In this document: positions 15,859-62,761 of the stretch, piece after piece
How positions within the stretch are numbered: the stretch's first letter is position 1
Layout of the letters: the number at the start of each line of letters is the position of its first letter
From: Erysipelotrichaceae bacterium
GTDB lineage: Bacteria; Bacillota_I; Bacilli_A; Erysipelotrichales; Erysipelotrichaceae
Reading direction: 5' to 3'
Length of the DNA: 64,000 nucleotides
Assembly: GCA_017515475.1 (NCBI GenBank)
Contig: JAFWFS010000027.1
Span: forward strand, 829-64,828
Program-made: the position numbers and the translations under genes
The notes under the pieces: generated by a model
The model's input: only the letters and a program-made list of their open reading frames with translations
Databases searched by the model: none
Told to the model about the DNA's origin: nothing

Positions 15859-15883
15859 AATATATACCTCTATAATTAATATA

Positions 15884-17419: not shown

Positions 17420-17507
17420 ATAAGAAAGTATAGCTTATTCATACGCTTTTAACAAATTATTTAAATATGCTTTAAAACAAACGATGATTCTTTGATATTA
17501 TATTTAT

Positions 17508-18983: not shown

Positions 18984-18995
18984 AGGAAGGTAAAT

Positions 18996-20546: not shown

Positions 20547-22011
20547 TTTCTCTTTAGATAAACTTCTTGTTTTTTTATCTATTCTATATGTAACGATACC
20601 GGTTTTAGTTTTCTTTTTTGGCTGGTTAAAAGAAGCCGTGGCTTTATTTGCCGCTGTTCCTTTTTTCTTTTTCGTATATTTTGTTTGTAAGGACATTATT
20701 GAAACCGAAACAAAGCTTTTCACTAAAGAAACATATATCTATTGGATCATCGCAATCGCTGTAATTTGCATTTGGGTTTATTTTTCAGGGATAGGTGCTT
20801 TCTCCTTTCAAAACGGCGATCATTGGGTTAGAAATCCTATCTACAGAGACTTGTGTTCTTATCGGTGGCCGGTAATCTACGATCTATCCAAAGAGCCTGC
20901 TTTTGTTCAATCTATTACAGGGTCTGATCCGGTAGCGTTTTCTTATTACTTTACGTTTTGGCTGGTTCCAGCTCTAATCTCAAAAGTGTTTGGATTAAGC
21001 GAACTGGGATGCAACATAATACTGTTTTTATGGTCGGTAACGGGTCTGCTGCTGATTCTTTACAATATGAACAGAATTATCGGAAAGTGTTCTGTCGGCA
21101 GTTTACTGATGCTTGTTTTTTTCAGCGGTATGGATATCTTGAGATGTGTCTACTATGGGAAACCTTATCAATTTATTGAACATATTGAGTGGTGGGGAGA
21201 CTTGTACCGTATACAGTATTCTTCAAATACAACACAGCTTTATTGGGTCTTTAATCAATCAATTCCTCTTTGGTTGATAATTTGTCTGACATACCAACTG
21301 CAGTCAAATAAGTATTTAGGTGCGTTGTATGCATTATCATTTGCTTACTCACCATGGGCGATATTCGGAGTCATACCTATCGCACTTGTGGGGAGTTTTT
21401 CAAAAAAACAGAACATATGTCAAGTATTTAATTTGATTAATATCATTACGACTTTATTGACCGCCGGCATCTATGGCTTGTTCTATGTTGCCAGTTCAGG
21501 AAGTTCCGGAGGTATAGGAACGACCTTGTCGTATTACAGGACCAGACTTTTCGGGTTTTTGATTGATTATTTCATATTTGTTCTTACTGAATTTATTCTG
21601 TACTGGCTGTTTGTTTATAAAGAGAAAAAGAACGATAAATACTTCTGGATCGTTTCGATGGAGCTTCTATTGTTTCCTATGGTTTGGATGAGAGACGGAA
21701 ACTTCACGATGAGAGCTTCCATTCCTGCGCTTTTTATTTTCATGTTATATATCATAGAAACAATGAATCGCATCGAAACGAAAAGCAAAATCGTTCTTAC
21801 TGCTATGTTGCTGATTGGATCTTTGACCCCGATCAGCGAAATAAACAGAAGCATTAAAAACACCTTAATCGGTAATTACGATAATGAAGAAGAAATATAC
21901 AGTTTTGGAAACATTCAGACTCGAAACGAAGCAAGAATAAAGATAGTTAAAGATCAGTTTTTCATATATGATTATAATGAAAGTATTTTCTTTAAGTCTT
22001 TAGGAAAATGA
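20530..22011 (+). CDS. Polytopic membrane protein (candidate polymerase or GT-C); function unknown
   Basis: About 493 aa counting from the ATG at 20530 ([15 protein letters not shown]...). It has at least 10 hydrophobic spans. The start overlaps the upstream flavoprotein gene by 17 nt. The track start at 20476 is unlikely because it lies deep inside the upstream gene. Confidence 0.55.
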
Positions 22012-22050
22012 CGAATGAATTCATATAATAAAGATGGAGCATAGTTATTT

Positions 22051-23016
22051 ATGGAAAAAATAAGCAATAGAATAGGACTTTCAATCATTGTCCCCTGTTA
22101 TAACGAAGAAGAAGCTCTTCCAATTTTTTATGAAGAAGCAACAAGTGTTTTACGGTCAATTGGGATTAATTATGAACTGATTCTGGTCAATGACGGATCA
22201 AAAGATAAAACACTAGAAATCATGAAAGAGCTATCTGATAGAGATAATCATGTAATTTATCTTTCTTTTTCCCGTAATTTCGGCAAGGAATCCGCAATGT
22301 ATGCCGGTTTATGTAACGCAAAAGGAGACTATGTAGCCATAATGGATGCCGATATGCAGGATCCTCCTTCGCTTTTGCCGCAGATGATCGATATTCTTGA
22401 AACACAGGACTATGATTCTGTCGCAACCAGAAGAGCGACCAGAAAAGGTGAATCAAAGATCAGAAGCTTTTTTGCCAGATCCTTTTACAAGATAATTAAC
22501 AGGATATCCGATGCCGATATTGTAGATGGCGCCAGAGACTTCCGACTGATGAAAAGAAAAATGGTTGATTCCATTGTCTCCATGAGCGAATACAATCGTT
22601 TTTCCAAAGGCATCTTCGGCTGGGTTGGCTTCAAGACATATTGGCTGCCTTTTGAGAATGTGGAACGAGTTGCAGGAGTTACTAAATGGAGTTTCTGGGG
22701 TTTATTCAAATATGCAGTCAACGGCATTATCAACTTTTCACAGACGCCGCTGGTGATCGCCTCCTTTTTCGGCATGTTCATGACCGCGGTGGCGTTCATG
22801 ATGTTGGCATTCATTGTTGTCCGGAAGCTGATTTTTGGCGATCCGGTTGCCGGATGGGCTTCCACGATGTGTGTTATCATATTTATTGGCGGTATTCAGC
22901 TGTTCTGTCTGGGCATCATGGGGCAATACATCGGTAAGATGTACATGGAAACCAAGAACAGACCGCATTACATAATCTCCGAAACCAATAGAAAAGAAAC
23001 AGAAAAAATCAGGTAA
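22051..23016 (+). CDS. GT2 glycosyltransferase, GtrB/ArnC/CsbB type (polyprenyl-phosphate sugar synthase with 2 C-terminal TM helices)
   Basis: 321 aa. Motifs include LSIIVPCYNEEEAL, LVNDGSKDKT, FSRNFGKESA, IMDADMQDPP, two TM segments (LVIASFFGMFMTAVAFMMLAF and VIIFIGGIQLFCLGIMGQYIG), and the terminal motif RPHYII. Confidence 0.85.
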   Translation: MEKISNRIGLSIIVPCYNEEEALPIFYEEATSVLRSIGINYELILVNDGSKDKTLEIMKELSDRDNHVIYLSFSRNFGKESAMYAGLCNAKGDYVAIMDADMQDPPSLLPQMIDILETQDYDSVATRRATRKGESKIRSFFARSFYKIINRISDADIVDGARDFRLMKRKMVDSIVSMSEYNRFSKGIFGWVGFKTYWLPFENVERVAGVTKWSFWGLFKYAVNGIINFSQTPLVIASFFGMFMTAVAFMMLAFIVVRKLIFGDPVAGWASTMCVIIFIGGIQLFCLGIMGQYIGKMYMETKNRPHYIISETNRKETEKIR

Positions 23017-23020
23017 AAAA

Positions 23021-23974
23021 ATGAGAAAGAAGATCTCCATTGTTACGCCATGCTACTTCAACGGCATGAACCTTCCTGAAACATACAGTGTTATTAAAAA
23101 CACTGTGTTTGATGTATGCAAAAACTACGATTTTGAATGGATCTGCGTCGATGACGGCAGCGGCGATAATCAGCTGGAAGTCATGCAAAAACTGCAAAAA
23201 AAAGATGACAAAATCAAGATTGTCAAGCTTTCACGTAATTTTGGAGAATTTAGAGCCATTGTAGCCGGCATGTCTGTTGCACAAGGTGATGCAGTCGCCG
23301 TTATCAGTGCCGATCTTCAGGATCCGCCTGAACTGATTCCTGATCTTTTGAAATTATGGGAAAAGGGTAGCTTGGTCAACCTGGCAGTCAGAAAAGAAAG
23401 AGAAGAGAGTTTTCTGAAGAATTTCTTTGCGGATACCTATTATAAACTGGTAAGAAAATGGGTCATTGCAGATTATCCAAAGAGAGGTTTTGACTTCTTC
23501 TTGATCGATAAGAAAGTCGTAAAACAACTGGTAGAAATGCAGGAAAAAAATTCCTCGATCTATCTGCAACTGATCTGGCTTGGCTATAAACCACAGACCA
23601 TTGAGTATACTAGAAGAAGCAGAGAAAAAGGGAAATCCATGTGGACGTTTAAAAAACGTCTGGATCTCTTTATCGATACTTTTGTCGTTTTCTCGCATAA
23701 GCTGATCCGGTTCATTATTTCGATCGGTTTATTGTTTGCTTTACTGGGAATGATTCTGGCAGTATACTTCATCATCGATAAGTTAACCAGCAACGTCATG
23801 CAGGGCTGGACTTCGTTGATCGTGCTGATATTGGTGGTATCCGGCATCATGATGGTGATGATGGGCCTTCTGGGAGAGTATATTTGGAGAAATCTCGACG
23901 AAACCAGAAGAAGACCTTTGTATGTGATTGAAGAAGTGATCACTAGGGAGAAAAAGAATGATTCTCGCAAATAA
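23021..23974 (+). CDS. Second GtrB/ArnC-type GT2 (polyprenyl-phosphate sugar synthase-like)
   Basis: 317 aa. Motifs include [40 protein letters not shown], two C-terminal TM helices, and GLLGEYIWR...RRPLYVI. Confidence 0.82.
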
Positions 23975-25055
23975 TCTGAAAAGACAGTATGACCTGTTTG
24001 CGGAAGAATACCGGCAGAAAGCGGTTGAAGTCCTGGATTCCGGCTGGTACGTTTTAGGCAATGAAGTAAAGGAATTCGAAAACGAATTCGCTTCCTATAT
24101 CGGTTCAAAACACTGTGTCGGTGTTGCTTCGGGAATGGATGCCCTGCAGATCGCATTTCGGATCATCGGCATTCACGAAGGCGATGAAGTAATTGTCTGT
24201 TCTAATGCGTATATTGCCTGTGCCATGGGCATTACAATGAACGGCGGTACACCGGTTTTTGTAGAACCGGATGCATACGATAACCTTGATGCTGAAAAGA
24301 TTGGGGAGAAGATAACAGATAAAACAAAAGCCATTCTGGCAGTTCATCTTTATGGCCAGTCCTGTGATATGGACAAAATCTGTGAGATTGCCAGGAAATA
24401 TAACCTAAAAGTGATCGAAGACTGTGCTCAGGCACATGGAACAAAGTGGAAGAAAAACAAGTGTGGCAGTATTGGCGACATGGCCTGCTGGAGTTTTTAT
24501 CCGACCAAAAATCTTGGTGCATTCGGTGATGGAGGAGCAATCACGACCGACGATGAAGACTATGCCAATGAAGCCAGAGTCATCCGCAACTACGGATCAA
24601 AAAAACTGCACTACGAAAATGATATTATTGGTATGAATTCCCGTCTGGATGAACTGCAGGCCGGTCTTTTAAGGGTCAAGCTGAAACATCTGGATGAACT
24701 TAATGAAGAGAGGATTCAGATCGCAGACAGATACAGCAACGAGATTGTCAATCCACTGGTTAGACCTCTTCAGACCAGACCAGGCTCAAACAACGTTTAT
24801 CATCAGTATGTGATTCATTGCGATAGAAGAGATGATCTGATGAACTATTTGAAAGAGAATGATATCGGAACGATTATTCACTATCCGATCCCGCCACATC
24901 TGCAGAAAGCCTATGCCTATCTGGGATATCATAAAGGAGACTATCCGATTGCGGAGAGATATGCAAATGAAGTTCTATCTTTGCCGATGTACAACGGCAT
25001 GAGTAAAGAGGAACTGGATTACGTCATAGAAAGAATAAATGATTTTAAGGAATAA
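23958..25055 (+). CDS. fdtB: DegT/DnrJ/EryC1-family sugar aminotransferase (FdtB/QdtB-like, NDP-3-keto-6-deoxyhexose 3-aminotransferase)
   Basis: 365 aa. Motifs include [38 protein letters not shown] and [19 protein letters not shown] (PLP lysine). It overlaps the upstream GT2 by 17 nt and is followed 2 nt later by an FdtA-type isomerase. The 3-position specificity is inferred from that partner. Confidence 0.75.
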
Positions 25056-25057
25056 AA

Positions 25058-25471
25058 ATGTCGTTAAGAGATAAGTGCCCGATTCTGGAATTCAAGGATC
25101 AGGGAGATGAAAGAGGGAAACTGGTTGTAATCGAAGGGGAGAAGTCGATTCCTTTTGCGATACAGCGTGTTTTCTACATCTATGGGTCGGATGCGACAGT
25201 TGTCAGAGGACAGCACGCCAACAGAGAATCGGAATTTGTTCTGATCAATGTTGCCGGCAGCAGCAAAGTCCGTATTACTGACGGTAAAGAGGAGTTTGTT
25301 GTAGAGTTGAACAGGCCGATGACGGGCATCTATATCCCGAAAATGGTCTGGAAGGATATGTATGATTTTTCCGATGACTCTGTTCTGCTTGTGCTTGCCA
25401 GTACGCACTATGATGGAAACGAATATATCAGAGACTATGACGCATATTTAGAGGAAATCAAGAATGGATAA
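25058..25471 (+). CDS. fdtA: FdtA/WxcM-type cupin, dTDP-4-keto-6-deoxyhexose 3,4-ketoisomerase
   Basis: 137 aa. Motifs include DERGKLVVIE...IPFAIQRVFYIYG...VRGQHANRE...LINVAGSSKV and LVLASTHYDGNEYIRDYDAYL. The size and motifs are typical of FdtA/QdtA. Confidence 0.8.
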   Translation: MSLRDKCPILEFKDQGDERGKLVVIEGEKSIPFAIQRVFYIYGSDATVVRGQHANRESEFVLINVAGSSKVRITDGKEEFVVELNRPMTGIYIPKMVWKDMYDFSDDSVLLVLASTHYDGNEYIRDYDAYLEEIKNG

Positions 25472-27005
25472 AGAAACAAAAAAGGGCATAAAGATATCCG
25501 ACATACTCCTGTATGTCGTTTTCACATTATTAATGATTTTCGTTATCTCGATGAAGATTGACTATCACATGGACGAAACATTGACATACGGTCTATCAAA
25601 TCATGCCGGATCATATTATATGGAACCAATAGACGGAATTCGCTATGAACCTTCCATTCAGCCTTATATAGATTATCTGGGAGCAACATCTCTGTCCCCG
25701 TCTTCTTTCTGGATCCCATATATCAATCAGGCAAGCGATTCTCATCCGCCGATCTATTACATGATCATTCATTTTGTATGCGGTCTCTTCAAGAGAACTT
25801 TTTCCCGCTGGCAGGCCGGATCTGTCAATATACTGTTTGCTTTAGGAACGCTTTTTCTGGTTAGAAAAATGATATCTCTCCTGACTGACAATAAACTCAT
25901 TTACCGGTCCTTGTCTTGGGCGTTTGTTTTTTGCTCAGCGATTCTTTCCGAAGTATCGTTTTTTAGAATGTATGTCATGGTAATATTCCTGACGACATTA
26001 ACGACTTATCTGTTTATATGGCAGATCGAGAAAGAAAGGGGAATTCTTTTCTATGCACTGATCAGCATTGTTGTGCTGACAGGAGCCCTTACTCACTATG
26101 GAACATTGATTTATTCTGCTCTGATCTGCATTACTTACGGAATATATCTTCTGATTCATAAGAAATGGAAAGATGCCGTGATCTTTTGCGTTCTCATGGG
26201 CATTGCTGCAGGAATCGCGATCGGCGTTTATCCGGCAATTATCCATCACGTCTTCGGCGCAGGAAGAGGGGGAGAATCGATTGGAAATCTTTTTGATCTT
26301 AGCGACATATTTTCCAGATACTTCGAGTATTTTTCTTTCTTTGACCGTTTTGTATTCGGGAGAATGCTGATTCTGATCCTTGTTTCGATCGTTGTTCTGT
26401 TCTTTTATCAGAAAAAAAAGGACCATCTTAAACTGGATGAGAAGACGGCAATGAAATATATCATTGTTATTGTTCCTGCTGCTTTGTTCTTTTGCGTAGC
26501 AGCGAAGTCATCCCCATATATAGAAGAAAGGTATACTTCAGCGATATATGCTACGGTTTTTGTGGGTGTATTATGTCCTCTCATGATTTTAGTTAGCAAA
26601 TGTTTCAATGAAAAGATCGCAAGAATCGTTACCGTATCTTTCTTGTTACTTATGTCGCTGATTTCGCTGGCGGGTAACGGATGGCAGTATCTCTATCGCC
26701 ACGAAAAGAAAAATTTCGATATTCTGGACAATTATGCAGAGAACGACTGCATCTGTATCTATAGCGGTGAAAGCTGGAGAATCAATACTTACATAATTGA
26801 ACTGACAAAGTATAACAGCTTGACGTTTATCAAACAGGGTGATATTGATCAGTATGATCTGGAGAGTTTTATCACGACTGATAACGGAATCATCGTTCTG
26901 GCGGGAGTTTTCGATGACAGCTATATGAATGAGGTCATGGAGAGACTCCCTGACTATAAAGGATATGACTATCTCTGCGAAAGATCATTTTTTGTTTATA
27001 GATAG
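25464..27005 (+). CDS. GT-C-like polytopic membrane glycosyltransferase (ArnT/PMT_2-like)
   Basis: 513 aa. The first loop reads DYHMDETLTYG (D-E at 25572-25577), followed by SDSHPPIYYMIIHF. It has many TM helices and a soluble C-terminal domain. It overlaps the fdtA end by 8 nt, which suggests translational coupling. Confidence 0.65.
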   Translation: MDKETKKGIKISDILLYVVFTLLMIFVISMKIDYHMDETLTYGLSNHAGSYYMEPIDGIRYEPSIQPYIDYLGATSLSPSSFWIPYINQASDSHPPIYYMIIHFVCGLFKRTFSRWQAGSVNILFALGTLFLVRKMISLLTDNKLIYRSLSWAFVFCSAILSEVSFFRMYVMVIFLTTLTTYLFIWQIEKERGILFYALISIVVLTGALTHYGTLIYSALICITYGIYLLIHKKWKDAVIFCVLMGIAAGIAIGVYPAIIHHVFGAGRGGESIGNLFDLSDIFSRYFEYFSFFDRFVFGRMLILILVSIVVLFFYQKKKDHLKLDEKTAMKYIIVIVPAALFFCVAAKSSPYIEERYTSAIYATVFVGVLCPLMILVSKCFNEKIARIVTVSFLLLMSLISLAGNGWQYLYRHEKKNFDILDNYAENDCICIYSGESWRINTYIIELTKYNSLTFIKQGDIDQYDLESFITTDNGIIVLAGVFDDSYMNEVMERLPDYKGYDYLCERSFFVYR

Positions 27006-27040
27006 AGATTGTTATATAATTTCTCAATAGGGTATAGATC

Positions 27041-28870
27041 ATGGAAATATTTAGAAGTGTTGTACCGATACTGTTCTTTATGACAATAAACAGCGCCTTA
27101 TGCACGGTACTTAAAAAAGGATTCGGAAAATGTCTGCCGTTCACTCTGATGACAGCAGTTTTTATGGTGTTTATATCTCAAACAATATTCAATACATTTA
27201 GGTTTGGATATTATCTTCTGATTTTGCTTTTTATCCTTTCTCTGTTCCTGATTTATAGGAACAACGACAAGAGAAACTACATTTTCACCAGCGGTTTTTA
27301 CATTTGTTTATGTCTTTGCCTTATTTTCCTTTTTATTGATTTTGGAAGACGTTTCTTTTGGGATGACGAACTTAGTCACTGGGGGAAGATGGTAAAAGAA
27401 ATGTGGAGACTGGATAAGTTCTATTATGTAAACGAATCTTCGCTGAGGAGCCATAAAGATTATCCGCCTTTTATTTCTCTGTTTGAATTGCTGTGGTGCT
27501 GGTTGTCTATGGGTTTCAGCGAAAGCAATATTTCCTTCGCCTTGCATTTCTTCGAGTTTTCTATTTTACTGCCTCCTGTGTTCGATGATTACTTTGAAAG
27601 CAGAAGAAAAGTCGAAAAGATTATCATGGATCTATTGCTCTGTGTATCTGTGATCGGCGTTGTTGTCTTCCTTGACAGTACTGATGTTTTTAATACCATA
27701 TATACCGATACTTTGATTGCTCTTCAGTTTGCTTACAGTATCTTCCTGATTTATTCAGATGAGATAGAGAACCATTTCGGAGTGTTATGCTATTCGTTGA
27801 TTCTGACGGCCGTTTTGATGACAAAACAGGTTGGTATCGCTTTTTGCATGCTGTCTTTGTTCTATGCTGCTTTATGTGCTATCTTTGGCCGTAACAGAAG
27901 AACGGAACTTTTGAATCTGCTGTCATCCCTTGTTATGCCTGTTGCTTTCTATCTGCTGTGGAACTATCTCATCAAAGACTATGAGCTTATAAAGCAATTT
28001 GATTTAGGAAACATCAGCGTTTCAGGAATGAAGGAAATTCTTTCGGGCGGTTCGTTCCAGCTGAATACGATCAAAATGTATGTGAATGCTCTATTCAAGA
28101 CCAGCATTTTCAAATGGTTTGCTCCTATCACTTTTCTGTCTTCGTTGCCGCTGGAGATACTGCTTCTGGAGCTGATAAAAAGATATTCATTAGAAAAGAA
28201 AAAAAAGACTTTCTTCGAACTGTGCTGTATAGTTGGAACGGCTGGTTATGCTTTGATGATGCTCATTCTTTATGCATTCTGTTATCCGGAAAGGGAAGCA
28301 GTTGTATTGAAATCTTATGAAAGGTATATGACCTCATTCATCTGTGCATTAATTGTTTGTATCCTATTTATTCTTATAGATACGTTTAAGCAGAAAATCA
28401 ACGACATGGATATGCACAAAGCATTTCTCTGCTTGTTAACAGTATTAACGGTTCTGGACGGAAACAGACTTCTGGATTTTGTGCCGCAGATTCTGTTAGG
28501 GAACAGATTCGCATCTTATGAAAAGAGAGCGGATTTTATCAAAGAAAGAGTTCATAGCAATTCCCGGGTCTTTATTGTCTATAATCAGGACAGCAATGAT
28601 AATTATCCTGCTTTCATAGCATATTATTGTGATGATGTGTTTTTTAATGAGAGGAACATGGATTTATACAAAGACAAGTATTCGGATATGGATGATTACA
28701 AGAAAGCCGTTGATGAATTAAAAACATATAACTACCTATACGTTATTGAAACAAGCGATGTATTCAATTATTTCTTCAATCCGATGAATAATGGAGAAGA
28801 TTTCCTGCCTGAAAGCATATACAGAATTACGGTGACAGATAATGATATGAAAACGGAGCTGGTAAACTGA
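27041..28870 (+). CDS. Large polytopic membrane protein, GT-C-like
   Basis: 609 aa. It carries FFWDDELSHWG (DDE at 27362-27370) followed by HKDYPPFISLFELLW. It has at least 12 hydrophobic spans and a soluble C-terminal tail. Confidence 0.55.
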   Translation: MEIFRSVVPILFFMTINSALCTVLKKGFGKCLPFTLMTAVFMVFISQTIFNTFRFGYYLLILLFILSLFLIYRNNDKRNYIFTSGFYICLCLCLIFLFIDFGRRFFWDDELSHWGKMVKEMWRLDKFYYVNESSLRSHKDYPPFISLFELLWCWLSMGFSESNISFALHFFEFSILLPPVFDDYFESRRKVEKIIMDLLLCVSVIGVVVFLDSTDVFNTIYTDTLIALQFAYSIFLIYSDEIENHFGVLCYSLILTAVLMTKQVGIAFCMLSLFYAALCAIFGRNRRTELLNLLSSLVMPVAFYLLWNYLIKDYELIKQFDLGNISVSGMKEILSGGSFQLNTIKMYVNALFKTSIFKWFAPITFLSSLPLEILLLELIKRYSLEKKKKTFFELCCIVGTAGYALMMLILYAFCYPEREAVVLKSYERYMTSFICALIVCILFILIDTFKQKINDMDMHKAFLCLLTVLTVLDGNRLLDFVPQILLGNRFASYEKRADFIKERVHSNSRVFIVYNQDSNDNYPAFIAYYCDDVFFNERNMDLYKDKYSDMDDYKKAVDELKTYNYLYVIETSDVFNYFFNPMNNGEDFLPESIYRITVTDNDMKTELVN

Positions 28871-28871
28871 C

Positions 28872-30479
28872 ATGAACAAAACTGTTAAAAAATACATTGA
28901 ATTATTTAAAAAGCATTCGGACTTAATCGGATATATCGCTTTGGCTCTGTTTTTTATCTTTTTGCATCTGAAGATGTATACGGTGATAGATCGACTTATC
29001 GACTCTGATATGTCTAGCGAACTTGTTCTGGCAAGGATCCTGGCATCAGAGAAGGTTTTGATTACGAAAAGCTGGTTTTATTCCAGTGAAATCAGAATTC
29101 TGAATACCAATCTTGTATTTGCACCTCTTTTCCTGATTACGAACAACTGGCATCTAGTCAGGATGATTGGAATGGCGATACTGAATATAATCCTGTTTAT
29201 CACTTTTGCTTATCTCGCAAAACAGTTAAGTATTAGGCATATTCCATGGATTGGTTTTCTGATCCTGGGATGTGTTTCCAAAGATTATTTCCTATTTGTA
29301 ACAATGGGATCGTTCTATGTTCCGCATTTTGCGATTTCTTTTATCTCTATAGGACTGATCATTGGTTTCTTTAAGGATGAGAGGAAGAATAGGAAGATAC
29401 TAAAACTGATTATTCTATTCGCATTGGCGTTTGCGGCAGGACTTGAAGGTATGAGATTAGTATCGATTACTTATCTGCCTTTGGTTCTGACTGCTATGTT
29501 GAGCTGTTTCATCAGCGAACTGGACGAGCTGAAAGAAGGCAGGTTCCGGTTGAAAGAACGGACCGTAATGCTGACGGCGGTATGCGCTTTAGGCTTTGTA
29601 TTCTCCTATGCGGGTGCCTATGTCAATTCAAACATACTTCCTGCTTTGGGATACTCCTACAAGATGGATGGTACGGATCTATATTATTCCGGTTTTGATT
29701 TTGAATCATTAGGGCAGGTCATTGACGGATGGATTGATGTGCTCGGTTATCAAAGCGACAACATGCCTGTATTCATGCCAACACAGTTGATTCTTAAACC
29801 GCTGTTTGCCTTGTTCTTCATTATCTTGTGCTGGGCAGTAATTGATATTCTTAAATATAAAGAGAAATACGATTTCTATGAGAGATTTATGAACCTGTAT
29901 TTCCTGATTGCCGCTCTGGTTATCAGTGCGCTGTTTGTTTTTACAACGACAGCTTATGTAAACCGTTATCTCTTGCCGGTTTCGGTTTTCTCCGTCTTTA
30001 CTGTCGGCATCTTCTTCTCTCATTACCGTATCGAATGGCAAAAATGGGGAATGCTGTCACTGATTGTCGTATTTATAGTAGTCAATACCAGATTCCAGAT
30101 CCATTATCAGCGAGATAATAACTGCTATACGGACGACAGTTTATTTGCCGCTGAGCAGACTATTCTTGCTAATGATTGCTTTAGCGGTTACACAATTGAT
30201 CACTGGAACGGTCATAATCTGTTTACGGAATTGACTGACGGCAAGATTGAAACTTGGAGACTAAATCAAAACGGTCTTAAAAGTATTAGCACATGGCTGC
30301 AGGCGAAGGATCATCAGACAAAAAAGCCTTCAGGCAAAGTATTTCTGCTTCTGCTGCAGGAGGAAAAAGAACTGGTTCATTTCAATGAAGATGTCAGCAG
30401 CTACATCCGTTATGAAGACAATGAAAGAATCCTATACATTTTTGACAATTATGAACAACTAAAAGGATTCATGGAATAA
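28872..30479 (+). CDS. Large polytopic membrane protein of unknown function (same apparent family as 13305..14903)
   Basis: 535 aa. It starts 1 nt after the previous stop. The loop after TM1 reads DSDMSSELVLARIL. It has many TM segments and a soluble tail of about 120 aa. Confidence 0.55.
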   Translation: MNKTVKKYIELFKKHSDLIGYIALALFFIFLHLKMYTVIDRLIDSDMSSELVLARILASEKVLITKSWFYSSEIRILNTNLVFAPLFLITNNWHLVRMIGMAILNIILFITFAYLAKQLSIRHIPWIGFLILGCVSKDYFLFVTMGSFYVPHFAISFISIGLIIGFFKDERKNRKILKLIILFALAFAAGLEGMRLVSITYLPLVLTAMLSCFISELDELKEGRFRLKERTVMLTAVCALGFVFSYAGAYVNSNILPALGYSYKMDGTDLYYSGFDFESLGQVIDGWIDVLGYQSDNMPVFMPTQLILKPLFALFFIILCWAVIDILKYKEKYDFYERFMNLYFLIAALVISALFVFTTTAYVNRYLLPVSVFSVFTVGIFFSHYRIEWQKWGMLSLIVVFIVVNTRFQIHYQRDNNCYTDDSLFAAEQTILANDCFSGYTIDHWNGHNLFTELTDGKIETWRLNQNGLKSISTWLQAKDHQTKKPSGKVFLLLLQEEKELVHFNEDVSSYIRYEDNERILYIFDNYEQLKGFME

Positions 30480-30499
30480 ACCGCTGAAAGGCGGTTTTT
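30478..30499 (+). terminator. Rho-independent terminator separating the membrane-protein run from the kds operon
   Basis: aaaccgc-tgaaag-gcggttt followed by tt, overlapping the stop codon of the preceding gene. Confidence 0.7.
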
Positions 30500-30530
30500 G
30501 TATGTAAAGATAATATCGTTTATAATAGGA

Positions 30531-32049: not shown

Positions 32050-32058
32050 AGGATTAAG

Positions 32059-33024: not shown

Positions 33025-33025
33025 T

Positions 33026-34947: not shown

Positions 34948-35658
34948 ATGAAAACAGTTATTTTAGCCGGAGGTCTGGGAACCAGACTATCAGAAGAAAC
35001 ACGTTTTGTTCCGAAACCGATGGTGCAGATCGGCGGATATCCGATGCTTTGGCATATCATGAACATATATTCAAAGCACGGTTTCAATGACTTTGTCATC
35101 TGTGCCGGGTACAAACAGGAAGTCATTTTCGAATGGGCAGAGAAGAACAAGGATCTGCTGGATCAGTGGAATATTGAGATCGTTGATACTGGTCTGAATA
35201 CAATGACCGGAGGCAGAATCAAGAGGATTCAGCCATATATTGGGAACGAGGATTTCATGCTGACATATGGGGACGGTCTTTCTGACATCAATATCAAGGA
35301 TCTGCTGAAGTATCACTATAACAGAAACAGGACACTGACGATAACGGCTTATCTTCCGGAGAACAGGTTCGGAATTTTGAAATTCGATGAGAACGACAAC
35401 GTTCTGTCCTTTAGTGAGAAAACCAGAGACGACAGCGACTGGATCAATGCCGGATTTATGGTCTGCAGTCCGGAGGTCTTCGATTATCTGGAAGGGGATG
35501 CGACCGTATTTGAAAAAGAGCCTATGCAAAGGATAGCCCAAAGCGGATGCATGGCTGCCTACAAACATCACGGATACTGGCAATGTATGGACACTTTAAG
35601 AGAAAAACAGATCCTGGAAGAATTATGGAAAAAAGGGGACGCTCCGTGGAAGCTTTAA
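34948..35658 (+). CDS. rfbF: Glucose-1-phosphate cytidylyltransferase
   Basis: 236 aa and colinear with Salmonella RfbF. Motifs include MKTVILAGGLGTRLSEET..PKPMVQIGGYPMLWHIM, TGGRIKR, TYGDGLSD, HHGYWQCMDTLREK and LW..GDAPWK. Confidence 0.92.
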   Translation: MKTVILAGGLGTRLSEETRFVPKPMVQIGGYPMLWHIMNIYSKHGFNDFVICAGYKQEVIFEWAEKNKDLLDQWNIEIVDTGLNTMTGGRIKRIQPYIGNEDFMLTYGDGLSDINIKDLLKYHYNRNRTLTITAYLPENRFGILKFDENDNVLSFSEKTRDDSDWINAGFMVCSPEVFDYLEGDATVFEKEPMQRIAQSGCMAAYKHHGYWQCMDTLREKQILEELWKKGDAPWKL

Positions 35659-36689
35659 AGGATTTTTACAGCAATAAAAGAGTACTGATAACCGGTCATA
35701 CCGGTTTTAAAGGGAGTTGGATCTCACAGATCCTTTTAAATTTCAGGGCAGAAGTATGTGGCATTGCGTTAAGACCAAAAACGGAACCAAATCTGTTTAC
35801 TTTACTGAATCTTGATAAAAGAATGAATAATCATTATGTTGACATAAGAGATTACGATACGATTAAGAAGATATTTGATCAGTTTGAACCGGAGATTGTT
35901 TTGCATCTTGCCGCTCAGCCGTTAGTGATCGATTCATATAAGGAGCCCAGATATACTTACGATGTAAACATCATGGGTACCGTCAATATCTGCGAATGCG
36001 TCAGGCTTTCCGACAGTGTAAAATCGTTTGTGAACATTACTACGGATAAGGTTTACGAAAACGTTGAGGATGAAAATCATTATTACAGGGAAGATGAAAA
36101 ACTGAACGGCTATGATCCTTATTCCAACAGCAAGTCCTGCAGTGAACTGGTCACTCAGTCATACATAAAATCTTTTTTTAAAATCCCCGTATCGACCTGC
36201 AGAGCAGGAAATGTGATCGGTGGAGGCGACTTTTCTGCAAATAGGATCATGGTTGATTCATATTTTGCCGCCAGCAAAGAAAGGCCTATCAAGGTAAGAA
36301 ATCCTAATTCTGTCCGTCCTTATCAACATGTGCTTGAGGCTGACATGTTTTATCTGATGCTGGCGATGAAACAGTACATCGATCCTTCTTTGGCGGGGCA
36401 TTACAACATCGGCCCAAACGAGAACGATTGCATCACATCAGGAGAGATAGTTAAACTGTTCTGTCAGTATTGGCAGGGTGCGAGTTATGAATTCGCTAAC
36501 GTAGATGGCCCTCACGAAGCAAATTTCTTAAAACTGGATTCTTCCAAGGCAAGAAATACCCTAGGCTGGAGACCAAAGTGGAGTGTAAACGAAGCTGTTG
36601 AAAAGACGGTCGAATTATATAAAACAATCAGTAGAAATGATGATATAATGAGTATCTTAAATCAGCAGATAGATGCTTATTTGGGATAG
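35625..36689 (+). CDS. rfbG: CDP-glucose 4,6-dehydratase
   Basis: Motifs include KRVLITGHTGFKGSWIS, HLAAQPLV, NITTDKVYEN, GYDPYSNSKSCSELV, RAGNVIGGGD, VRPYQHVLE and FLKLDSSKA...LGW.PKW. The start is uncertain: either the ATG at 35625 or the in-frame GTG at 35646, which has a ggggac SD-like sequence upstream. The track start at 35547 is unlikely. Confidence 0.9.
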   Translation: MEKRGRSVEALKDFYSNKRVLITGHTGFKGSWISQILLNFRAEVCGIALRPKTEPNLFTLLNLDKRMNNHYVDIRDYDTIKKIFDQFEPEIVLHLAAQPLVIDSYKEPRYTYDVNIMGTVNICECVRLSDSVKSFVNITTDKVYENVEDENHYYREDEKLNGYDPYSNSKSCSELVTQSYIKSFFKIPVSTCRAGNVIGGGDFSANRIMVDSYFAASKERPIKVRNPNSVRPYQHVLEADMFYLMLAMKQYIDPSLAGHYNIGPNENDCITSGEIVKLFCQYWQGASYEFANVDGPHEANFLKLDSSKARNTLGWRPKWSVNEAVEKTVELYKTISRNDDIMSILNQQIDAYLG

Positions 36690-60184: not shown

Positions 60185-61309
60185 ATGACAATGGGCCAGT
60201 CTACACTGTTTAGCAAGAAAACAACCTCTATGTTGCACGGATTAGCCATATTGATGATGATATATCATCATCTCTTTATTAATGGTAACCACTGGTGCTT
60301 AAATGAAGGGGCTTCTTTGTTTGATATACTGGAATTCATGAATCCGTATCGTTCTGCTTCCGTGCAGCTCTTATTTGCCTGGTTCTGTAAGATCTGCGTT
60401 GCGGTCTTTGCTTTCACATCCGGATATGGGATCTGTGCCCAGCTGGACAAGAAATGTGATGGAACGTACAGATCCATGTATGGTTACTGTTTCAGAAGAC
60501 TATGGTCTTTCTATAAACAGTTCATGATTGCTTTTCTGTTTTTTAATGGTTACCAGTTGCTGTTTGATAATTCTCATGGCTTTGATTATTCATTTCTGAA
60601 TTTTATACTGAATATGCTGGGCTTGAGAACATCATACAATGCGACCCTGTGGTACGTTCCTTTATATTACTGCATGATCCTGCTTTCTCCGCTTTTTTAT
60701 GCGGTATTAAACGGAAAGATCAGCTTTAGATTAGTCGTTTGGCTAGCGATTGCCGGCATATTCTGTTCTGCTACGATTCTGTGCTATGCCTATATGATCA
60801 ATGATTTGCCGCATTATCTTATGATTTTTTCGAATCTGATTCAGAGCCCGTTCACTATTTATATGACCGTCTTCTTTGAAGGAATGGCCTGCTGTAGATT
60901 TTTAATACTTGATAAAATTAGTCGGAAGATGGGTTTATTGACAAATCTTCTTCTCTTAACCGCAACGTTTGTTCTGCGTACCATGGTGATTAGAGTGCCC
61001 GGGGATTACGTTTTCGATATTATGTTTATTATCCCGTTCATACTCAGCGTTTCCGGACTTATGTCGTATTCGAAATACTTGAGTACCGCTTTATGTCGTC
61101 TTGGAAACTATTCTTCCTACATGTGGTATTCCCATCCTTACTTCTATTCCTACTTGTTCTTTGGCTTCATAAGAAAAAGTGACATTTCACTGTTTGTATA
61201 TGCTCAGGTAGTGCTTTATTCGATGACGACATCCTTGTTTTTTTCGTTTGTTGAGAAAAATCTTGATAAACTATGTAAGAATATTATTAGAAAGGAAACG
61301 ACTTCATGA
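60185..61309 (+). CDS. Acyltransferase-3 family membrane O-acyltransferase (second copy)
   Basis: 374 aa with about 10 TM segments. It carries the histidine motif [16 protein letters not shown] near the N-terminus. Confidence 0.65.
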
Positions 61310-62187
61310 AAGGTATTATTTTAGCTGGAGGAGCCGGAACAAGACTGTACCCCCTGACAATGGTGACATCCAAGCAGCTTCTGCCTGTTTATGATAAACC
61401 GATGATCTACTATCCTTTAAGCACATTGATGCTGGCGGGAATCAAGGAGATTCTGGTTATCTCTACACCATCGGATACGCCTAGATTCCAGGAACTCTTA
61501 GGTGATGGTTCACAGTTTGGTGTTTCTCTTTCTTACTGCGTACAGCCTTCTCCGGACGGTCTGGCCCAGGCTTTCATTCTTGGAAAAGAATTCATTGGAG
61601 ATGATTCCTGTGCAATGGTGCTGGGAGATAACATTTTCTACGGAAATGGTTTCTCACATATTCTGGAAAAGGCGAGAATGAACGCTGAAGAAAACAATAG
61701 AGCGACGATATTCGGATACCACGTCAATGATCCAGAACGCTTCGGAATTGTTGAATTCGACAAGAACGGAAAGGTTTTGTCCGTTGAGGAAAAACCTGCT
61801 CATCCGAAATCAAATTACTGCATTACTGGTCTGTATTTCTACCCGAAAGGTGTTTCAGCGATGGCGGGCAAAGTGAAGCCGTCTGCAAGAGGCGAGCTGG
61901 AGATAACAACCTTGAATGACATGTATCTGAAAGAAGAAAGACTGGATGTGGAACTTCTCGGAAGAGGTTATGCGTGGCTGGATACTGGAACGATGGATTC
62001 TCTTGTTGAAGCGGCCGTTTATGTACAGCTTTTATCCAAGAGGCAGAATTATGTCATTTCCGCTCCGGAAGAGATTGGATATAAATATGGCTGGATCAGT
62101 AGGGATGGACTGTTGAACAGCGCTGCACGTTACGGAAAATCTCCATATGGAGAGCATCTTAAGGCTGTGGCCGAAGGAAGAGAATAG
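61306..62187 (+). CDS. rmlA: Glucose-1-phosphate thymidylyltransferase
   Basis: 293 aa. Motifs include [18 protein letters not shown]...[68 protein letters not shown] and [11 protein letters not shown]. Confidence 0.95.
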
Positions 62188-62188
62188 A

Positions 62189-62761
62189 ATGAAGCGGATC
62201 GATACTGCCATTGAGGGAGTATATATTATCGAATCGGACTGTTACGGCGATAACCGTGGCTGGTTTATGGAAACATATAATCAGGCCAAGTTTCGTGATC
62301 TTGGAATAGATACTGTTTTTGTGCAGGACAATATGTCGTATTCTGCACAGAAAGGCACCTTAAGAGGTTTGCACTATCAAAGAGGTGAACACTCTCAAAC
62401 AAAGCTTGTCAGGTGTACCAGAGGGATAGTCATCGACGTTGCGGTAGATATCAGAAAAGGATCTCCGACTTACGGAAAATACGTAACCTGTGAGCTTTCG
62501 GCAGAAAACAAAAGGATGTTTTATATTCCTAGAGGCATGGCTCACGGTTTTCTGACGGTAACGGATGACGTTGAATTCCAGTACAAGTGTGATAATCTTT
62601 ACAATAAGGAATCGGAAGGATCTATCAGATATGATGATCCTGATATCGGTATCGACTGGGGCTCATTGTTAAACGGCATAGAACCGGTATTATCGGATAA
62701 GGACAAGATCGCTCCAACCCTGAAAGAATGCAATGCGGACTTTATTTATGAAAAACGATAA
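62189..62761 (+). CDS. rmlC: dTDP-4-dehydrorhamnose 3,5-epimerase
   Basis: 190 aa from the ATG at 62189. Motifs include IEGVYIIES....DNRGWFMETYN, LRGLHYQ...SQTKLVRCTRGIVIDVAVDIRKGSPTYGK, YIPRGMAHGF and YKCD. The track start at 62147 lies inside rmlA. Confidence 0.92.
   Translation: MKRIDTAIEGVYIIESDCYGDNRGWFMETYNQAKFRDLGIDTVFVQDNMSYSAQKGTLRGLHYQRGEHSQTKLVRCTRGIVIDVAVDIRKGSPTYGKYVTCELSAENKRMFYIPRGMAHGFLTVTDDVEFQYKCDNLYNKESEGSIRYDDPDIGIDWGSLLNGIEPVLSDKDKIAPTLKECNADFIYEKR

What the first reader, a model, noticed from the sequence alone, without database searches (positions are those of the whole stretch)
22051..27005. Lipid-carrier decoration module for a 3-amino-3,6-dideoxyhexose with no N-acetyltransferase: a possible cationic wall modification
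Five tightly packed or overlapping genes are involved: two GtrB/ArnC-type GT2s, an FdtB-like aminotransferase, an FdtA-type 3,4-ketoisomerase, and a GT-C protein with DE...HPP motifs. The aminotransferase overlaps the second GT2 by 17 nt, and the GT-C overlaps fdtA by 8 nt.

Established knowledge: FdtA and FdtB convert dTDP-4-keto-6-deoxyglucose into dTDP-3-amino-3,6-dideoxygalactose. This is normally N-acetylated by FdtC.

Seen here: no hexapeptide-repeat or GNAT acetyltransferase occurs anywhere in the window.

Inference: the amino sugar may be loaded on polyprenyl phosphate and transferred outside with a free amine. That would add positive charge to the wall polymer, functionally analogous to L-Ara4N addition or D-alanylation. 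The gene order (carrier-loading GT, sugar-tailoring enzymes, GT-C) parallels arnBCADT logic, but in a Firmicute.
Basis: partly seen in the sequence, partly recalled or inferred. Interest (0 to 1): 0.7.

Follow-up and report, generated by a model that had tools for sequence, protein, structure and literature searches.

The report
Lipid-carrier amino-sugar wall decoration cassette
A gut Erysipelotrichaceae bacterium carries a compact, recurring gene set that most likely makes a rare 3-amino sugar, loads it on a membrane lipid carrier and attaches it to a cell-surface polymer outside the cell. No gene to cap the amine is present, so the sugar may add positive charge to the wall.

Summary
The five ORFs, the 17-nt and 8-nt overlaps, the DE and HPP motifs, and the absence of any hexapeptide or GNAT acyltransferase in the 64-kb window all hold.

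The host is an Erysipelotrichaceae MAG, so it is a Firmicute.

The conserved unit has four genes, not five:
- GT2b, a GtrB/ArnC-type polyprenyl-phosphate glycosyltransferase
- a QdtB/FdtB-type sugar 3-aminotransferase
- an FdtA/QdtA-type 3,4-ketoisomerase
- a GT-C-fold transferase

GT2a is a generic GtrB neighbour, not part of the unit.

GT2b relatives (57-86% identical) sit directly upstream of the aminotransferase and isomerase in 7 of 9 contexts read. These span four lineages and three gene orders. They include minimal YfhO + GT2b-DegT-FdtA cassettes among housekeeping genes in Solobacterium, and an LtaS-YfhO-linked one in Anaerorhabdus furcosa. None of these cassettes encodes an N-acyltransferase.

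The lipid-carrier route is therefore well supported by comparative genomics. The free, cationic amine is plausible but unproven. Sugar stereochemistry (Fuc3N or Qui3N), the nucleotide (dTDP or CDP), the flippase and the acceptor are all unresolved.

The closest precedent is the Xanthomonas wxcK-O Fuc3NAc branch system, which does include an acetyltransferase. I rate this a new variant of a known kind, interest 0.6.

The parts
23021..23974 (+). GT2b: a GtrB/ArnC-type polyprenyl-phosphate glycosyltransferase and the cassette-specific lipid-loading enzyme.
   Evidence: PF00535. Full-length match to GtrB 5EKP (177 bits) and ArnC (about 120 bits). Two C-terminal TM helices. Conserved VDDGS and SADLQDPP motifs. 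Relatives at 57-86% identity lie directly upstream of DegT/FdtA in 7 of 9 contexts.
23958..25055 (+). PLP-dependent NDP-3-keto-6-deoxyhexose 3-aminotransferase (QdtB/FdtB/WlaRG type).
   Evidence: PF01041 at 381 bits. Best PDB hits are QdtB (388 bits), WlaRG (355) and DesV (305). The PLP lysine motif FYPTKNLG aligns with QdtB FYPAKNLG. Overlaps GT2b by 17 nt.
25058..25471 (+). FdtA/QdtA-type NDP-4-keto-6-deoxyglucose 3,4-ketoisomerase (cupin).
   Evidence: PF05523 at 154 bits. PDB hits: QdtA 121-123 bits, WlaRB 111, WlaRA 109, FdtA 105. The first catalytic His is conserved. The second His of the H-x-H motif is Asn (RGQHANR) in this clade.
25464..27005 (+). GT-C-fold extracytoplasmic glycosyltransferase, from a family that did not reach any Pfam model. 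Predicted to move the sugar from the lipid carrier to a surface polymer.
   Evidence: About 11 TM segments. AF2 pLDDT 91. Foldseek top 30 are all GT-C enzymes. D37/E38 and H94-P95-P96-x-Y98-Y99 are conserved. About 2,000 50%-cluster representatives at E<=1e-30. FdtA lies directly upstream in 4 architectures, and DegT-FdtA are linked again at 33% identity in L095.
22051..23016 (+). GT2a: a second GtrB-type polyprenyl-phosphate glycosyltransferase. It is adjacent but probably serves other GT-Cs of the locus.
   Evidence: Matches GtrB 5EKP at 271 bits and NCBIfam PgfS at 340 bits. It is 30% identical to GT2b. It is 57-67% identical to GtrB-like genes that sit beside distant GT-C relatives lacking DegT/FdtA. 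It is absent from several cassette loci.
27041..28870 (+). 609-aa GT-C-fold membrane protein. It is a neighbour in the same operon and is not an acyltransferase.
   Evidence: AF2 pLDDT 90. Foldseek top hits are AftA, PglB, STT3 and ArnT. D109, E110 and Y141-P142-P143 are invariant. It is conserved together with the next gene in L006, L007 and L091, whether or not DegT/FdtA are present.
28872..30479 (+). 535-aa polytopic membrane protein, a probable further GT-C-like transferase. The operon seems to end after it.
   Evidence: About 11 TM segments. Weak profile-profile similarity to the GT-C family (hhalign probability 39%, 362 columns). A terminator-like hairpin lies at 30478-30497.
61306..62761 (+). 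rmlA and rmlC, a partial dTDP-6-deoxyhexose supply route. rmlB is not in the window.
   Evidence: NCBIfam rmlA at 452 bits, above cut-off. PF00908 at 246 bits.
34948..36689 (+). Glucose-1-phosphate cytidylyltransferase and CDP-glucose 4,6-dehydratase. These are a possible alternative source of the NDP-4-keto-6-deoxyglucose substrate.
   Evidence: NCBIfam TIGR02623 (306 bits) and TIGR02622 (400 bits), both above cut-off. The same pair directly follows GT2b-FdtA-DegT in A. furcosa.

Best explanation
GT2b-DegT-FdtA-GT-C (23021-27005) is the local copy of a cassette that recurs in Erysipelotrichales and related Bacillota. It is an extracytoplasmic 'three-component' glycosylation system whose sugar is a 3-amino-3,6-dideoxyhexose.

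Proposed steps:
1. The isomerase converts NDP-4-keto-6-deoxyglucose to the 3-keto sugar. This assignment rests on homology. The substrate would come from rmlA plus an unlinked rmlB, or possibly from the CDP-glucose genes in the locus.
2. The aminotransferase makes NDP-3-amino-3,6-dideoxyhexose (homology).
3. GT2b transfers the sugar to undecaprenyl phosphate at the inner face of the membrane. This is inferred from family membership and conserved gene linkage.
4. An unidentified flippase moves the lipid-linked sugar across the membrane (inferred; no candidate found).
5. The GT-C enzyme transfers the sugar to a wall polymer. Here that is probably the Kdo- and rhamnose-containing polysaccharide of this locus. 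In relatives that use YfhO, it is probably a teichoic acid. This step is inferred.

No copy of the cassette carries an N-acyltransferase, so the amine most likely stays free and adds positive charge.

The 0.6 confidence applies to the lipid-carrier amino-sugar route. For the free-amine sub-claim alone I estimate about 0.45.
For: Enzyme identities.

Translational coupling: the 17-nt and 8-nt overlaps.

Conserved linkage of GT2b with DegT and FdtA, in four lineages and three gene orders:
- window, L007 and L093 (GT2b-DegT-FdtA-GT-C)
- Solobacterium L179/L180 and L181/L182 (divergent YfhO, then GT2b-DegT-FdtA, among groES/EL, rnf and pheST)
- Anaerorhabdus furcosa L176 (LtaS-YfhO-YfhO-GT2b-FdtA-DegT)
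- Clostridia MAG L178 (GT2b-2,3-dehydratase-DegT-FdtA-reductase)

A fifth lineage, L095, links DegT-FdtA to an ABC exporter, a 33%-identical GT-C and a different TM-anchored GT2.

In the minimal cassettes, GT2b is the only cytoplasmic glycosyltransferase next to the sugar genes.

Cytoplasmic enzymes are 78-89% conserved between loci, while the GT-Cs are only 50-63% conserved. The same pattern is reported for the Xanthomonas wxc genes (PMC13133917).

No Hexapep, GNAT or formyltransferase occurs in the window or in any cassette. The unknown 609-aa neighbour has a GT-C fold and is not an acyltransferase.

The DegT/FdtA-less variant L091 nests inside the DegT/FdtA-linked GT-C clade: its GT-C is 65-68% identical to P0003, P0004 and P0008, and P0003 was read next to DegT-FdtA (L093). 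That points to loss or relocation rather than a different specificity.
Against: - Two GT2b contexts lack DegT/FdtA: L091/L092, where GT2b is 81% identical, and Solobacterium L177.
- In L006 a GT8 Leloir transferase sits between DegT and FdtA.
- No GtrA-type flippase is present in the window.
- No dTDP-glucose 4,6-dehydratase is present in the window.
- The second His of the FdtA H-x-H motif is Asn here.
- From my own knowledge: characterised GtrB/ArnC enzymes use UDP-sugars. Every characterised lipid-linked amino-sugar route (Arn, Francisella NaxD, Bordetella Lgm, mycobacterial PpgS) loads an N-acylated sugar and deacylates it later.
- An acyltransferase could be encoded elsewhere in the genome.
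Confidence: 0.6

Rival explanations
1. The route is the same lipid-carrier pathway, but the NDP-3-amino sugar is N-acylated by an unlinked acyltransferase before GT2b loads it. The transferred sugar would then be neutral Fuc3NAc or Qui3NAc, or another N-acyl form, as in Xanthomonas.
For: - The Xanthomonas wxc region 3 system installs Fuc(3)NAc branches and uses a bifunctional isomerase/acetyltransferase, WxcM (PMC4878081, PMC13133917; PDB 4MZU 'WxcM-like').
- From my own knowledge: ArnC requires the N-formylated sugar.
- Only the window and 8-10-kb flanks of the relatives were inspected.
- A GNAT lies about 6 kb from the L181 cassette, after pheT.
Against: FdtC/QdtC-type enzymes are pathway-specific and normally clustered with their partner genes. 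Here they are missing from five independent cassette lineages, including minimal cassettes set among housekeeping genes, and from the whole 64-kb glycan locus.
Confidence: 0.25
2. DegT and FdtA merely supply a nucleotide sugar for a cytoplasmic Leloir glycosyltransferase that builds the repeat unit. GT2b and the GT-C would carry an unrelated common sugar, and the adjacency would reflect dense packing of glycan genes.
For: - GT2b is equally conserved (81%) in L091/L092, where DegT/FdtA are absent.
- Solobacterium L177 has GT2b with a GT-C and no DegT/FdtA.
- L006 has a GT8 inserted between DegT and FdtA.
- The window holds many Leloir GT2 and GT4 genes.
Against: - In L179/L180, no Leloir transferase lies beside GT2b-DegT-FdtA; L181 has one further GT2 about 1.3 kb downstream.
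- The genes overlap in several lineages.
- Three different gene orders all keep GT2b next to the sugar genes.
- 80 loci with distant GT-C relatives, many carrying GT2a-like GtrB genes, show no FdtA and only one weak DegT-like match. The linkage is therefore specific to the GT2b clade.
Confidence: 0.1
3. The acceptor is a protein rather than a glycopolymer. The cassette would be an O-glycosylation system of the streptococcal Pgf/GtrB type, modifying Ser/Thr-rich regions of surface proteins.
For: - The best NCBIfam model for both GT2s is PgfS, though below cut-off.
- GT-C enzymes of the PMT type are protein O-glycosyltransferases, and Pmt4 and STT3 are among the Foldseek hits.
- Streptococcal GtrB-dependent protein glycosylation is documented (PMC12041528).
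- L179 carries a PMT/PMT_2 gene about 1.2 kb downstream of FdtA, after an antisense Na_Ca_ex gene.
Against: - The window copy sits in a polysaccharide locus with Kdo, rhamnan (RgpF), Wzx and ABC-transporter genes.
- Relatives pair the cassette with YfhO, and in A. furcosa with LtaS. YfhO is a teichoic-acid glycosyltransferase in Bacillus, Listeria and Staphylococcus (PMC5836110, PMC8035078).
Confidence: 0.05

Closest known systems
Xanthomonas campestris wxc region 3 (wxcK aminotransferase, wxcL GT2, wxcM isomerase/acetyltransferase, wxcN small membrane protein, wxcO membrane protein). It adds Fuc(3)NAc side branches to the rhamnan O antigen.
   Same: - It uses the same three cytoplasmic activities (3,4-ketoisomerase, 3-aminotransferase, GT2) clustered with a membrane transferase.
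- It decorates a rhamnose-containing polymer.
- wxcK and wxcN mutants lose the branch sugar (PMC4878081).
- The cytoplasmic genes are highly conserved and the membrane transferase is hypervariable (PMC13133917). That matches the 78-89% versus 50-63% pattern seen here.
   Different: - WxcM carries an N-acetyltransferase domain. Here the isomerase is a stand-alone 137-aa cupin with no acyltransferase nearby.
- No small WxcN/GtrA-like protein is present here.
- The host here is a monoderm Firmicute.
- I did not have the WxcL and WxcO sequences, so homology to them was not tested.
Arn pathway (ArnB, ArnC, ArnA, ArnD, ArnT, ArnE/F), which adds L-Ara4N to lipid A.
   Same: - A DegT-family aminotransferase, a GT2 polyprenyl-phosphate transferase homologous to ArnC and a GT-C transferase (ArnT is among the Foldseek hits).
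- A cationic amino sugar as the end product.
   Different: - No formyltransferase, decarboxylase (ArnA) or deformylase (ArnD) is present.
- The sugar is a 6-deoxyhexose from an NDP-4-keto-6-deoxyglucose route rather than a UDP-pentose.
- The acceptor cannot be lipid A in a monoderm.
- If the amine is never acylated, the mechanism differs at the lipid-loading step.
Gram-positive multi-component transmembrane glycosylation systems (CsbB/GtcA/YfhO, GtlA/GtlB, CsdAB/CD/EF, GacI/GacL).
   Same: - A GT-A enzyme with C-terminal TM helices plus a GT-C enzyme acting on LTA, WTA or rhamnopolysaccharide.
- Relatives of the cassette use YfhO itself as the GT-C partner.
   Different: - The sugars listed for these systems are Glc, Gal and GlcNAc, taken from housekeeping UDP-sugars (Table 1 of PMC8035078).
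- This cassette carries its own sugar-tailoring enzymes and would install an amino-dideoxyhexose.
- No GtcA/GtrA flippase was found.
FdtA-FdtB-FdtC (Aneurinibacillus) and QdtA-QdtB-QdtC (Thermoanaerobacterium) S-layer glycan nucleotide-sugar pathways, and Campylobacter WlaRA/RB/RG.
   Same: The isomerase and aminotransferase are clear homologues.
   Different: - From my own knowledge, those pathways end with N-acetylation (FdtC, QdtC) or another N-acylation, and they feed Leloir transferases.
- Here there is no acyltransferase, and the downstream enzyme is a polyprenyl-phosphate GT2.

Membership tests
GtrB/ArnC-type polyprenyl-phosphate glycosyltransferase (GT2) | GT-A catalytic domain with a DXD-type motif, alignable over its full length to GtrB and ArnC | tested here: met
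   PF00535. GT2b matches 5EKP at E 4e-51 over residues 4-306, and ArnC at about 1e-34. GT2a matches at 1e-79. VDDGS and ADLQD motifs are conserved.
GtrB/ArnC-type polyprenyl-phosphate glycosyltransferase (GT2) | Two C-terminal transmembrane helices | tested here: met
   Hydropathy peaks fall at about 221-252 and 255-284 in GT2b, and at 239-257 and 261-291 in GT2a.
GtrB/ArnC-type polyprenyl-phosphate glycosyltransferase (GT2) | Transfers a sugar from a nucleotide donor to undecaprenyl phosphate; identity of the donor | not testable with these tools
   Only gene linkage to DegT/FdtA bears on this (7 of 9 contexts).
FdtA/QdtA sugar 3,4-ketoisomerase | Membership of PF05523 and close similarity to solved enzymes | tested here: met
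   154 bits against a cut-off of 23. QdtA 121-123 bits, FdtA 105 bits.
FdtA/QdtA sugar 3,4-ketoisomerase | Pair of active-site histidines (H-x-H; FdtA His49/His51, from my own knowledge) | tested here: inconclusive
   The first His is conserved in all nine homologues. The second is Asn in the window and Solobacterium clades, His in A. furcosa and L095, and Thr in L178. The FdtA mutant entries in the PDB score in the order expected if the query naturally resembles H51N; that mapping of entries to mutants is my inference.
FdtA/QdtA sugar 3,4-ketoisomerase | Product C4 stereochemistry (galacto = Fdt, gluco = Qdt) | tested here: inconclusive
   Scores against Qui- and Fuc-type enzymes differ by less than 20 bits. 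At the positions mutated in PDB 4ZU7 (QdtA Y17 and R97), the window enzyme has Arg and Lys. The paper on these determinants was not available.
Sugar 3-aminotransferase (QdtB/FdtB/WlaRG/DesV) | DegT fold with the PLP lysine; nearest characterised relatives are C3 aminotransferases | tested here: met
   PF01041 at 381 bits. QdtB 388, WlaRG 355 and DesV 305 bits, against 143-155 for ArnB and 138 for 4-aminotransferases. The lysine is aligned.
GT-C glycosyltransferase superfamily | Multi-TM GT-C fold | tested here: met
   AF2 pLDDT 91 and pTM 0.91. The Foldseek top 30 are all GT-C enzymes, with probability 1.0 and TM-scores of 0.45-0.55 for the top hits.
GT-C glycosyltransferase superfamily | Conserved acidic residue(s) in the first extracytoplasmic loop | tested here: met
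   D37 is at least 90% conserved and E38 is invariant, just after TM1 (helix 11-29) and at the start of helix 36-46.
ArnT/PMT_2 (PF13231) or YfhO (PF09586) sequence families | Significant match to the Pfam model | tested here: not met
   The window protein has no Pfam hit at E<=0.01 and no PDB sequence hit. One distant relative (P0015) carries PF13231.
Arn (L-Ara4N) pathway | N-formylation before lipid loading and deformylation after it (ArnA N-terminal domain, ArnD) | tested here: not met
   No formyltransferase or polysaccharide-deacetylase family is found in the window.
Xanthomonas wxcK-O type Fuc3NAc branch system | N-acetyltransferase domain (WxcM) and a small GtrA-like membrane protein (WxcN) | tested here: not met
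   The isomerase is 137 aa and consists only of PF05523. There is no LbH domain anywhere. The only small polytopic ORF is a DUF2304 at 45449-45805.

The most novel reading that the evidence does not exclude
Erysipelotrichales load an unacylated NDP-3-amino-3,6-dideoxyhexose directly onto undecaprenyl phosphate with a dedicated GtrB-family enzyme. They then install the free-amine sugar on teichoic acid or wall polysaccharide through interchangeable GT-C partners (YfhO or the 513-aa family).

This would be a cationic wall modification equivalent to D-alanylation or L-Ara4N. It would skip the acylate-load-deacylate detour used by every characterised lipid-linked amino-sugar pathway. It would also use a non-UDP donor.
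Probability: 0.4. Interest if true: 0.75.

Novelty: new variant of a known kind. Interest (0 to 1): 0.6.

Why it matters
If correct, the result has four consequences.

- It adds an amino-dideoxyhexose to the short list of sugars (Glc, Gal, GlcNAc) known to be delivered by lipid-carrier systems in Gram-positive bacteria.
- It defines a GtrB subfamily with a new donor class.
- It gives gut and oral Erysipelotrichales (Solobacterium, Anaerorhabdus and many uncultured lineages) a previously unrecognised way to tune surface charge. That bears on resistance to host cationic peptides, phage adsorption and immune recognition.
- The cassette is small and occurs in cultured species, so the hypothesis can be tested directly.

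Tried and rejected
1. A genome-contig scan with the GT-C protein found no relative. The replacement scan with phosphoglucomutase gave only hits of 61% identity or less, to assorted gut and rumen MAGs, mostly Clostridia and other Bacillota, and did not identify the organism. The identification came later, from the source name of the exact GT2b sequence.

2. PDB sequence searches with the GT-C protein and with the 609-aa family gave nothing. Fold prediction was needed instead.

3. I tried to assign Fuc3N versus Qui3N from PDB scores and from the two positions mutated in 4ZU7. The result was inconclusive, and the key paper was not held.

4. The metagenome scan with the GT-C profile returned 80 loci, all distant (23-40% identity). 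None carried FdtA, and only one had a weak DegT-like match. This was useful only as a negative control.

5. I considered that the 609-aa or 535-aa membrane proteins might be hidden acyltransferases or flippases. The 609-aa protein has a GT-C fold. The 535-aa protein is weakly GT-C-like.

6. I considered that the first search, which returned only 18 relatives of the GT-C protein, meant a rare family. The exhaustive profile search shows about 2,000 cluster representatives.

7. At first I read the DegT/FdtA-less L091 variant as evidence against linkage. Its GT-C nests within the DegT/FdtA-linked clade, so loss or relocation is the simpler reading.

8. Literature searches for YfhO/CsbB with DegT, for Erysipelothrix serovar loci, and for Fuc3N/Qui3N on teichoic acids found no description of this cassette.

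9. The hexapeptide-periodicity heuristic had no positive control. It carries little weight beside the Pfam scans.

Full report
**What is in the window**

The five ORFs exist exactly as described: 22051-23016, 23021-23974, 23958-25055, 25058-25471 and 25464-27005, all on the + strand. The second GT2 overlaps the aminotransferase by 17 nt. The isomerase overlaps the last gene by 8 nt. The other two junctions are 4 and 2 nt, and each start has a purine-rich RBS-like stretch upstream.

The five genes lie inside a co-directional run from 17508 to 30479. A divergent intergenic region precedes it and a terminator-like hairpin at 30478-30497 follows it. This run is part of a glycan locus of about 53 kb at about 40% G+C. 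The locus begins after an IS200 transposase gene, next to a roughly 51% G+C flank of housekeeping sugar-metabolism genes.

**Enzyme identities**

- **The two GT2s.** Both match PF00535 and align over their full length to the polyprenyl-phosphate glycosyltransferases GtrB (5EKP) and ArnC. GT2a scores 271 and 159 bits; GT2b scores 177 and 123 bits. Each has two C-terminal hydrophobic helices. They are only 30% identical to each other.
- **The aminotransferase.** It matches PF01041 at 381 bits. Its best solved relatives are sugar C3-aminotransferases: QdtB (388 bits), WlaRG (355) and DesV (305). These score far above ArnB or the 4-aminotransferases. The PLP lysine is aligned.
- **The 137-aa protein.** It matches PF05523. 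It hits QdtA (121-123 bits), WlaRB (111), WlaRA (109) and FdtA (105).
- **The 513-aa protein.** It has no Pfam or PDB sequence match. It folds with pLDDT 91 into a GT-C structure, and all the top Foldseek hits are STT3, PglB, ALG9, ArnT, DPY19, Pmt4 and AftB. The DE (37-38) and HPP (94-96) motifs are invariant or nearly invariant in its family. An exhaustive profile search finds about 2,000 cluster representatives of this family at E<=1e-30, so it is large but has no curated model.

**No N-acyltransferase in the window**

Every six-frame ORF of at least 130 aa was scanned against Pfam. None hits Hexapep, a GNAT family or a formyltransferase.

The window does contain two Acyl_transf_3 membrane acyltransferases and a YdjC-family deacetylase. 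All three are far from the module. The unknown 609-aa protein just downstream was checked in case it was a cryptic acyltransferase. It has a GT-C fold.

**Host**

NCBI names the exact GT2b sequence and the 609-aa protein 'MAG: Erysipelotrichaceae bacterium'. The Firmicute assumption therefore holds. The same locus recurs in several metagenome assemblies.

**Comparative genomics, the main new evidence**

Close relatives of the GT-C (50-63% identity) appear in these arrangements:

| Locus | Arrangement |
|---|---|
| L093/L094 | GT2a-GT2b-DegT-FdtA-GT-C-kds |
| L007 | GT2b-DegT-FdtA-GT-C, without GT2a |
| L006 | DegT-GT8-FdtA-GT-C |
| L091/L092 | GT2a-GT2b-GT-C, without DegT/FdtA |

A 33%-identical GT-C in L095 again sits beside DegT-FdtA. 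That locus also holds an ABC exporter and a different TM-anchored GT2.

The GT2b family is abundant in Erysipelotrichales. Five further contexts were read:

- **Anaerorhabdus furcosa, a cultured species.** The order is LtaS-YfhO-YfhO-GT2b-FdtA-DegT-RfbF-RfbG-SDR-RfbH.
- **A Clostridia MAG.** The order is GT2b-2,3-dehydratase-DegT-FdtA-GFO reductase, followed by two membrane proteins.
- **A Solobacterium MAG and one other lineage.** Each has a minimal cassette: a divergent YfhO, then GT2b-DegT-FdtA with overlapping ORFs. The cassette sits among groES/EL, rnf and pheST genes.
- **One Solobacterium MAG.** It has GT2b with a different GT-C and no DegT/FdtA.

In total, 7 of 9 GT2b contexts keep GT2b directly upstream of the two sugar-tailoring genes. 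These contexts span four lineages and three gene orders.

As a control, 80 loci holding distant relatives of the GT-C were examined. Many carry GT2a-like GtrB genes at 57-67% identity. None has FdtA, and only one has a weak DegT-like match. The linkage is therefore specific to the GT2b clade, and GT2a is a generic neighbour.

None of the cassettes contains an N-acyltransferase. The only GNAT seen lies about 6 kb away in L181, after pheT.

The DegT/FdtA-less L091 GT-C is 65-68% identical to P0003, P0004 and P0008, of which P0003 is DegT/FdtA-linked (L093). That is closer than those three are to the window protein. Loss or relocation of the two genes is therefore the simplest reading.

**Mechanism**

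The best-supported model is a multi-component extracytoplasmic glycosylation system.

1. The isomerase and aminotransferase convert NDP-4-keto-6-deoxyglucose to NDP-3-amino-3,6-dideoxyhexose. This step rests on homology.
2. GT2b loads the sugar on undecaprenyl phosphate. This is inferred from family membership and linkage.
3. An unidentified flippase moves it across the membrane.
4. The GT-C enzyme transfers it to a polymer. In relatives, YfhO takes this role.

In this locus the acceptor is probably the wall polysaccharide specified by the surrounding genes (Kdo synthesis, RgpF, Wzx, ABC transporter, several more GT-C proteins). In YfhO- and LtaS-linked relatives, a teichoic acid is the likely acceptor. 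That follows from the known roles of YfhO (PMC5836110, PMC8035078).

Because the pathway-specific acyltransferase is missing from every cassette, the amine probably stays free. This remains an argument from absence. From my own knowledge, it also runs against all characterised lipid-linked amino-sugar routes, which load an N-acylated sugar.

**Unresolved points**

- **C4 stereochemistry.** PDB scores do not discriminate. At the two positions mutated in the QdtA entry 4ZU7, the window enzyme has Arg and Lys.
- **Isomerase active site.** The second histidine of the H-x-H motif is Asn in the window and Solobacterium clades.
- **The nucleotide.** rmlA and rmlC are in the window, but rmlB is not. 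CDP-glucose synthase and dehydratase genes lie in this locus, and they directly follow the cassette in A. furcosa.
- **The flippase.** No GtrA-family protein is present.

**Comparison with known systems**

- **Xanthomonas wxc region 3** is the nearest precedent. An aminotransferase (WxcK), a GT2 (WxcL), an isomerase/acetyltransferase (WxcM), a small membrane protein (WxcN) and a variable membrane protein (WxcO) add Fuc(3)NAc branches to a rhamnan. wxcK and wxcN mutants lack the branches (PMC4878081, PMC13133917). The present cassette differs in three ways: it lacks the acetyltransferase domain, it lacks the small membrane protein, and it occurs in monoderm Firmicutes.
- **The Arn pathway** follows the same logic, but this cassette lacks the formylation and deformylation enzymes.
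- **Gram-positive CsbB/YfhO-type systems** are described only for Glc, Gal and GlcNAc (PMC8035078).

Searches of the held literature found no description of the cassette.

**Verdict**

The lipid-carrier amino-sugar module is well supported, at about 0.6. The free-amine, cationic function is plausible, at about 0.45, but untested.
- It is a new variant of a known kind of system. It is moderately interesting and readily testable in cultured Anaerorhabdus or Solobacterium.

Noticed in passing
window 10999-12474 (-): An XRE-type helix-turn-helix domain (residues 14-67) is fused in frame to a full UDP-glucose dehydrogenase. There is no internal Met before the [11 protein letters not shown] Rossmann start. 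A 67%-identical dehydrogenase in L008 lacks the extension.
   Followed up: partly
window 30498-33934 (+): A complete Kdo synthesis set (kdsB, kdsA, kdsD, and a DUF386 domain fused to a KdsC-like HAD phosphatase) lies in the glycan locus of a monoderm Erysipelotrichaceae. It is conserved next to the cassette in L007 and L093. This suggests a Kdo-containing wall polysaccharide or capsule in a Gram-positive bacterium.
   Followed up: partly
window 34948-38379 (+): A second amino-sugar route is present: glucose-1-phosphate cytidylyltransferase, CDP-glucose 4,6-dehydratase, a second DegT aminotransferase and an RmlC-like epimerase. It is followed by Wzx and also has no N-acyltransferase.
   Followed up: partly
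window 49895-53587 (+): A GT2 is followed by a YdjC-family deacetylase (weak HpnK and ChbG matches) and an ABC-2 transporter pair. The GT2 plus YdjC pairing recalls HpnI/HpnK and Francisella NaxD. It could generate a free-amine hexosamine elsewhere in the same locus.
   Followed up: no
window 18996-20546 (+); also L091 3559-5124 and L178 3920-5473: A PRK07208-family FAD oxidoreductase, with only a faint UDP-galactopyranose-mutase-like stretch, sits between two polytopic membrane proteins. It is 89% identical in L091. In L178 a homologue lies next to a radical SAM/SPASM protein and DUF2142 GT-Cs. Its function is unknown.
   Followed up: no
window 13305-30479: There is an unusual density of large polytopic membrane proteins: 532, 511 (GtrII), 491, 511, 513, 609 and 535 aa. 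DUF2142 at 45802-47841 adds one more. Three polyprenyl-phosphate-type GT2s accompany them (12610-13293, GT2a and GT2b). Two of the membrane proteins were shown to have a GT-C fold.
   Followed up: partly
window 10389-10865 (+): An IS200/Y1 transposase gene lies at the boundary between the roughly 51% G+C housekeeping flank and the roughly 40% G+C glycan locus. This is consistent with horizontal acquisition of the locus.
   Followed up: no
window 45449-45805 (+): An ORF shorter than 130 aa encodes a DUF2304 small membrane protein (E 7e-27). It lies between a short GT2 (44769-45437) and DUF2142, and overlaps the DUF2142 start.
   Followed up: yes
L178 8001-12948: This is a variant cassette: GT2b, an NDP-hexose 2,3-dehydratase (PF03559), DegT, FdtA and a GFO/IDH/MocA reductase. 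The enzyme set suggests a lipid-carrier route for a 3-amino-2,3,6-trideoxyhexose. From my own knowledge, sugars of this type keep a free amine in antibiotics.
   Followed up: no
window 25058-25471; L179 10040-10456; L181 10040-10456: The isomerases of the window and Solobacterium clades share RGQHANR in place of the canonical RG-x-H-x-H. The second active-site histidine is naturally Asn. A. furcosa and L095 keep His.
   Followed up: partly
L091 6446-7418: The GT2a homologue is called as two ORFs (90 aa and 239 aa). This could be a frameshift or an assembly error. It occurs in the locus that also lacks DegT/FdtA.
   Followed up: no
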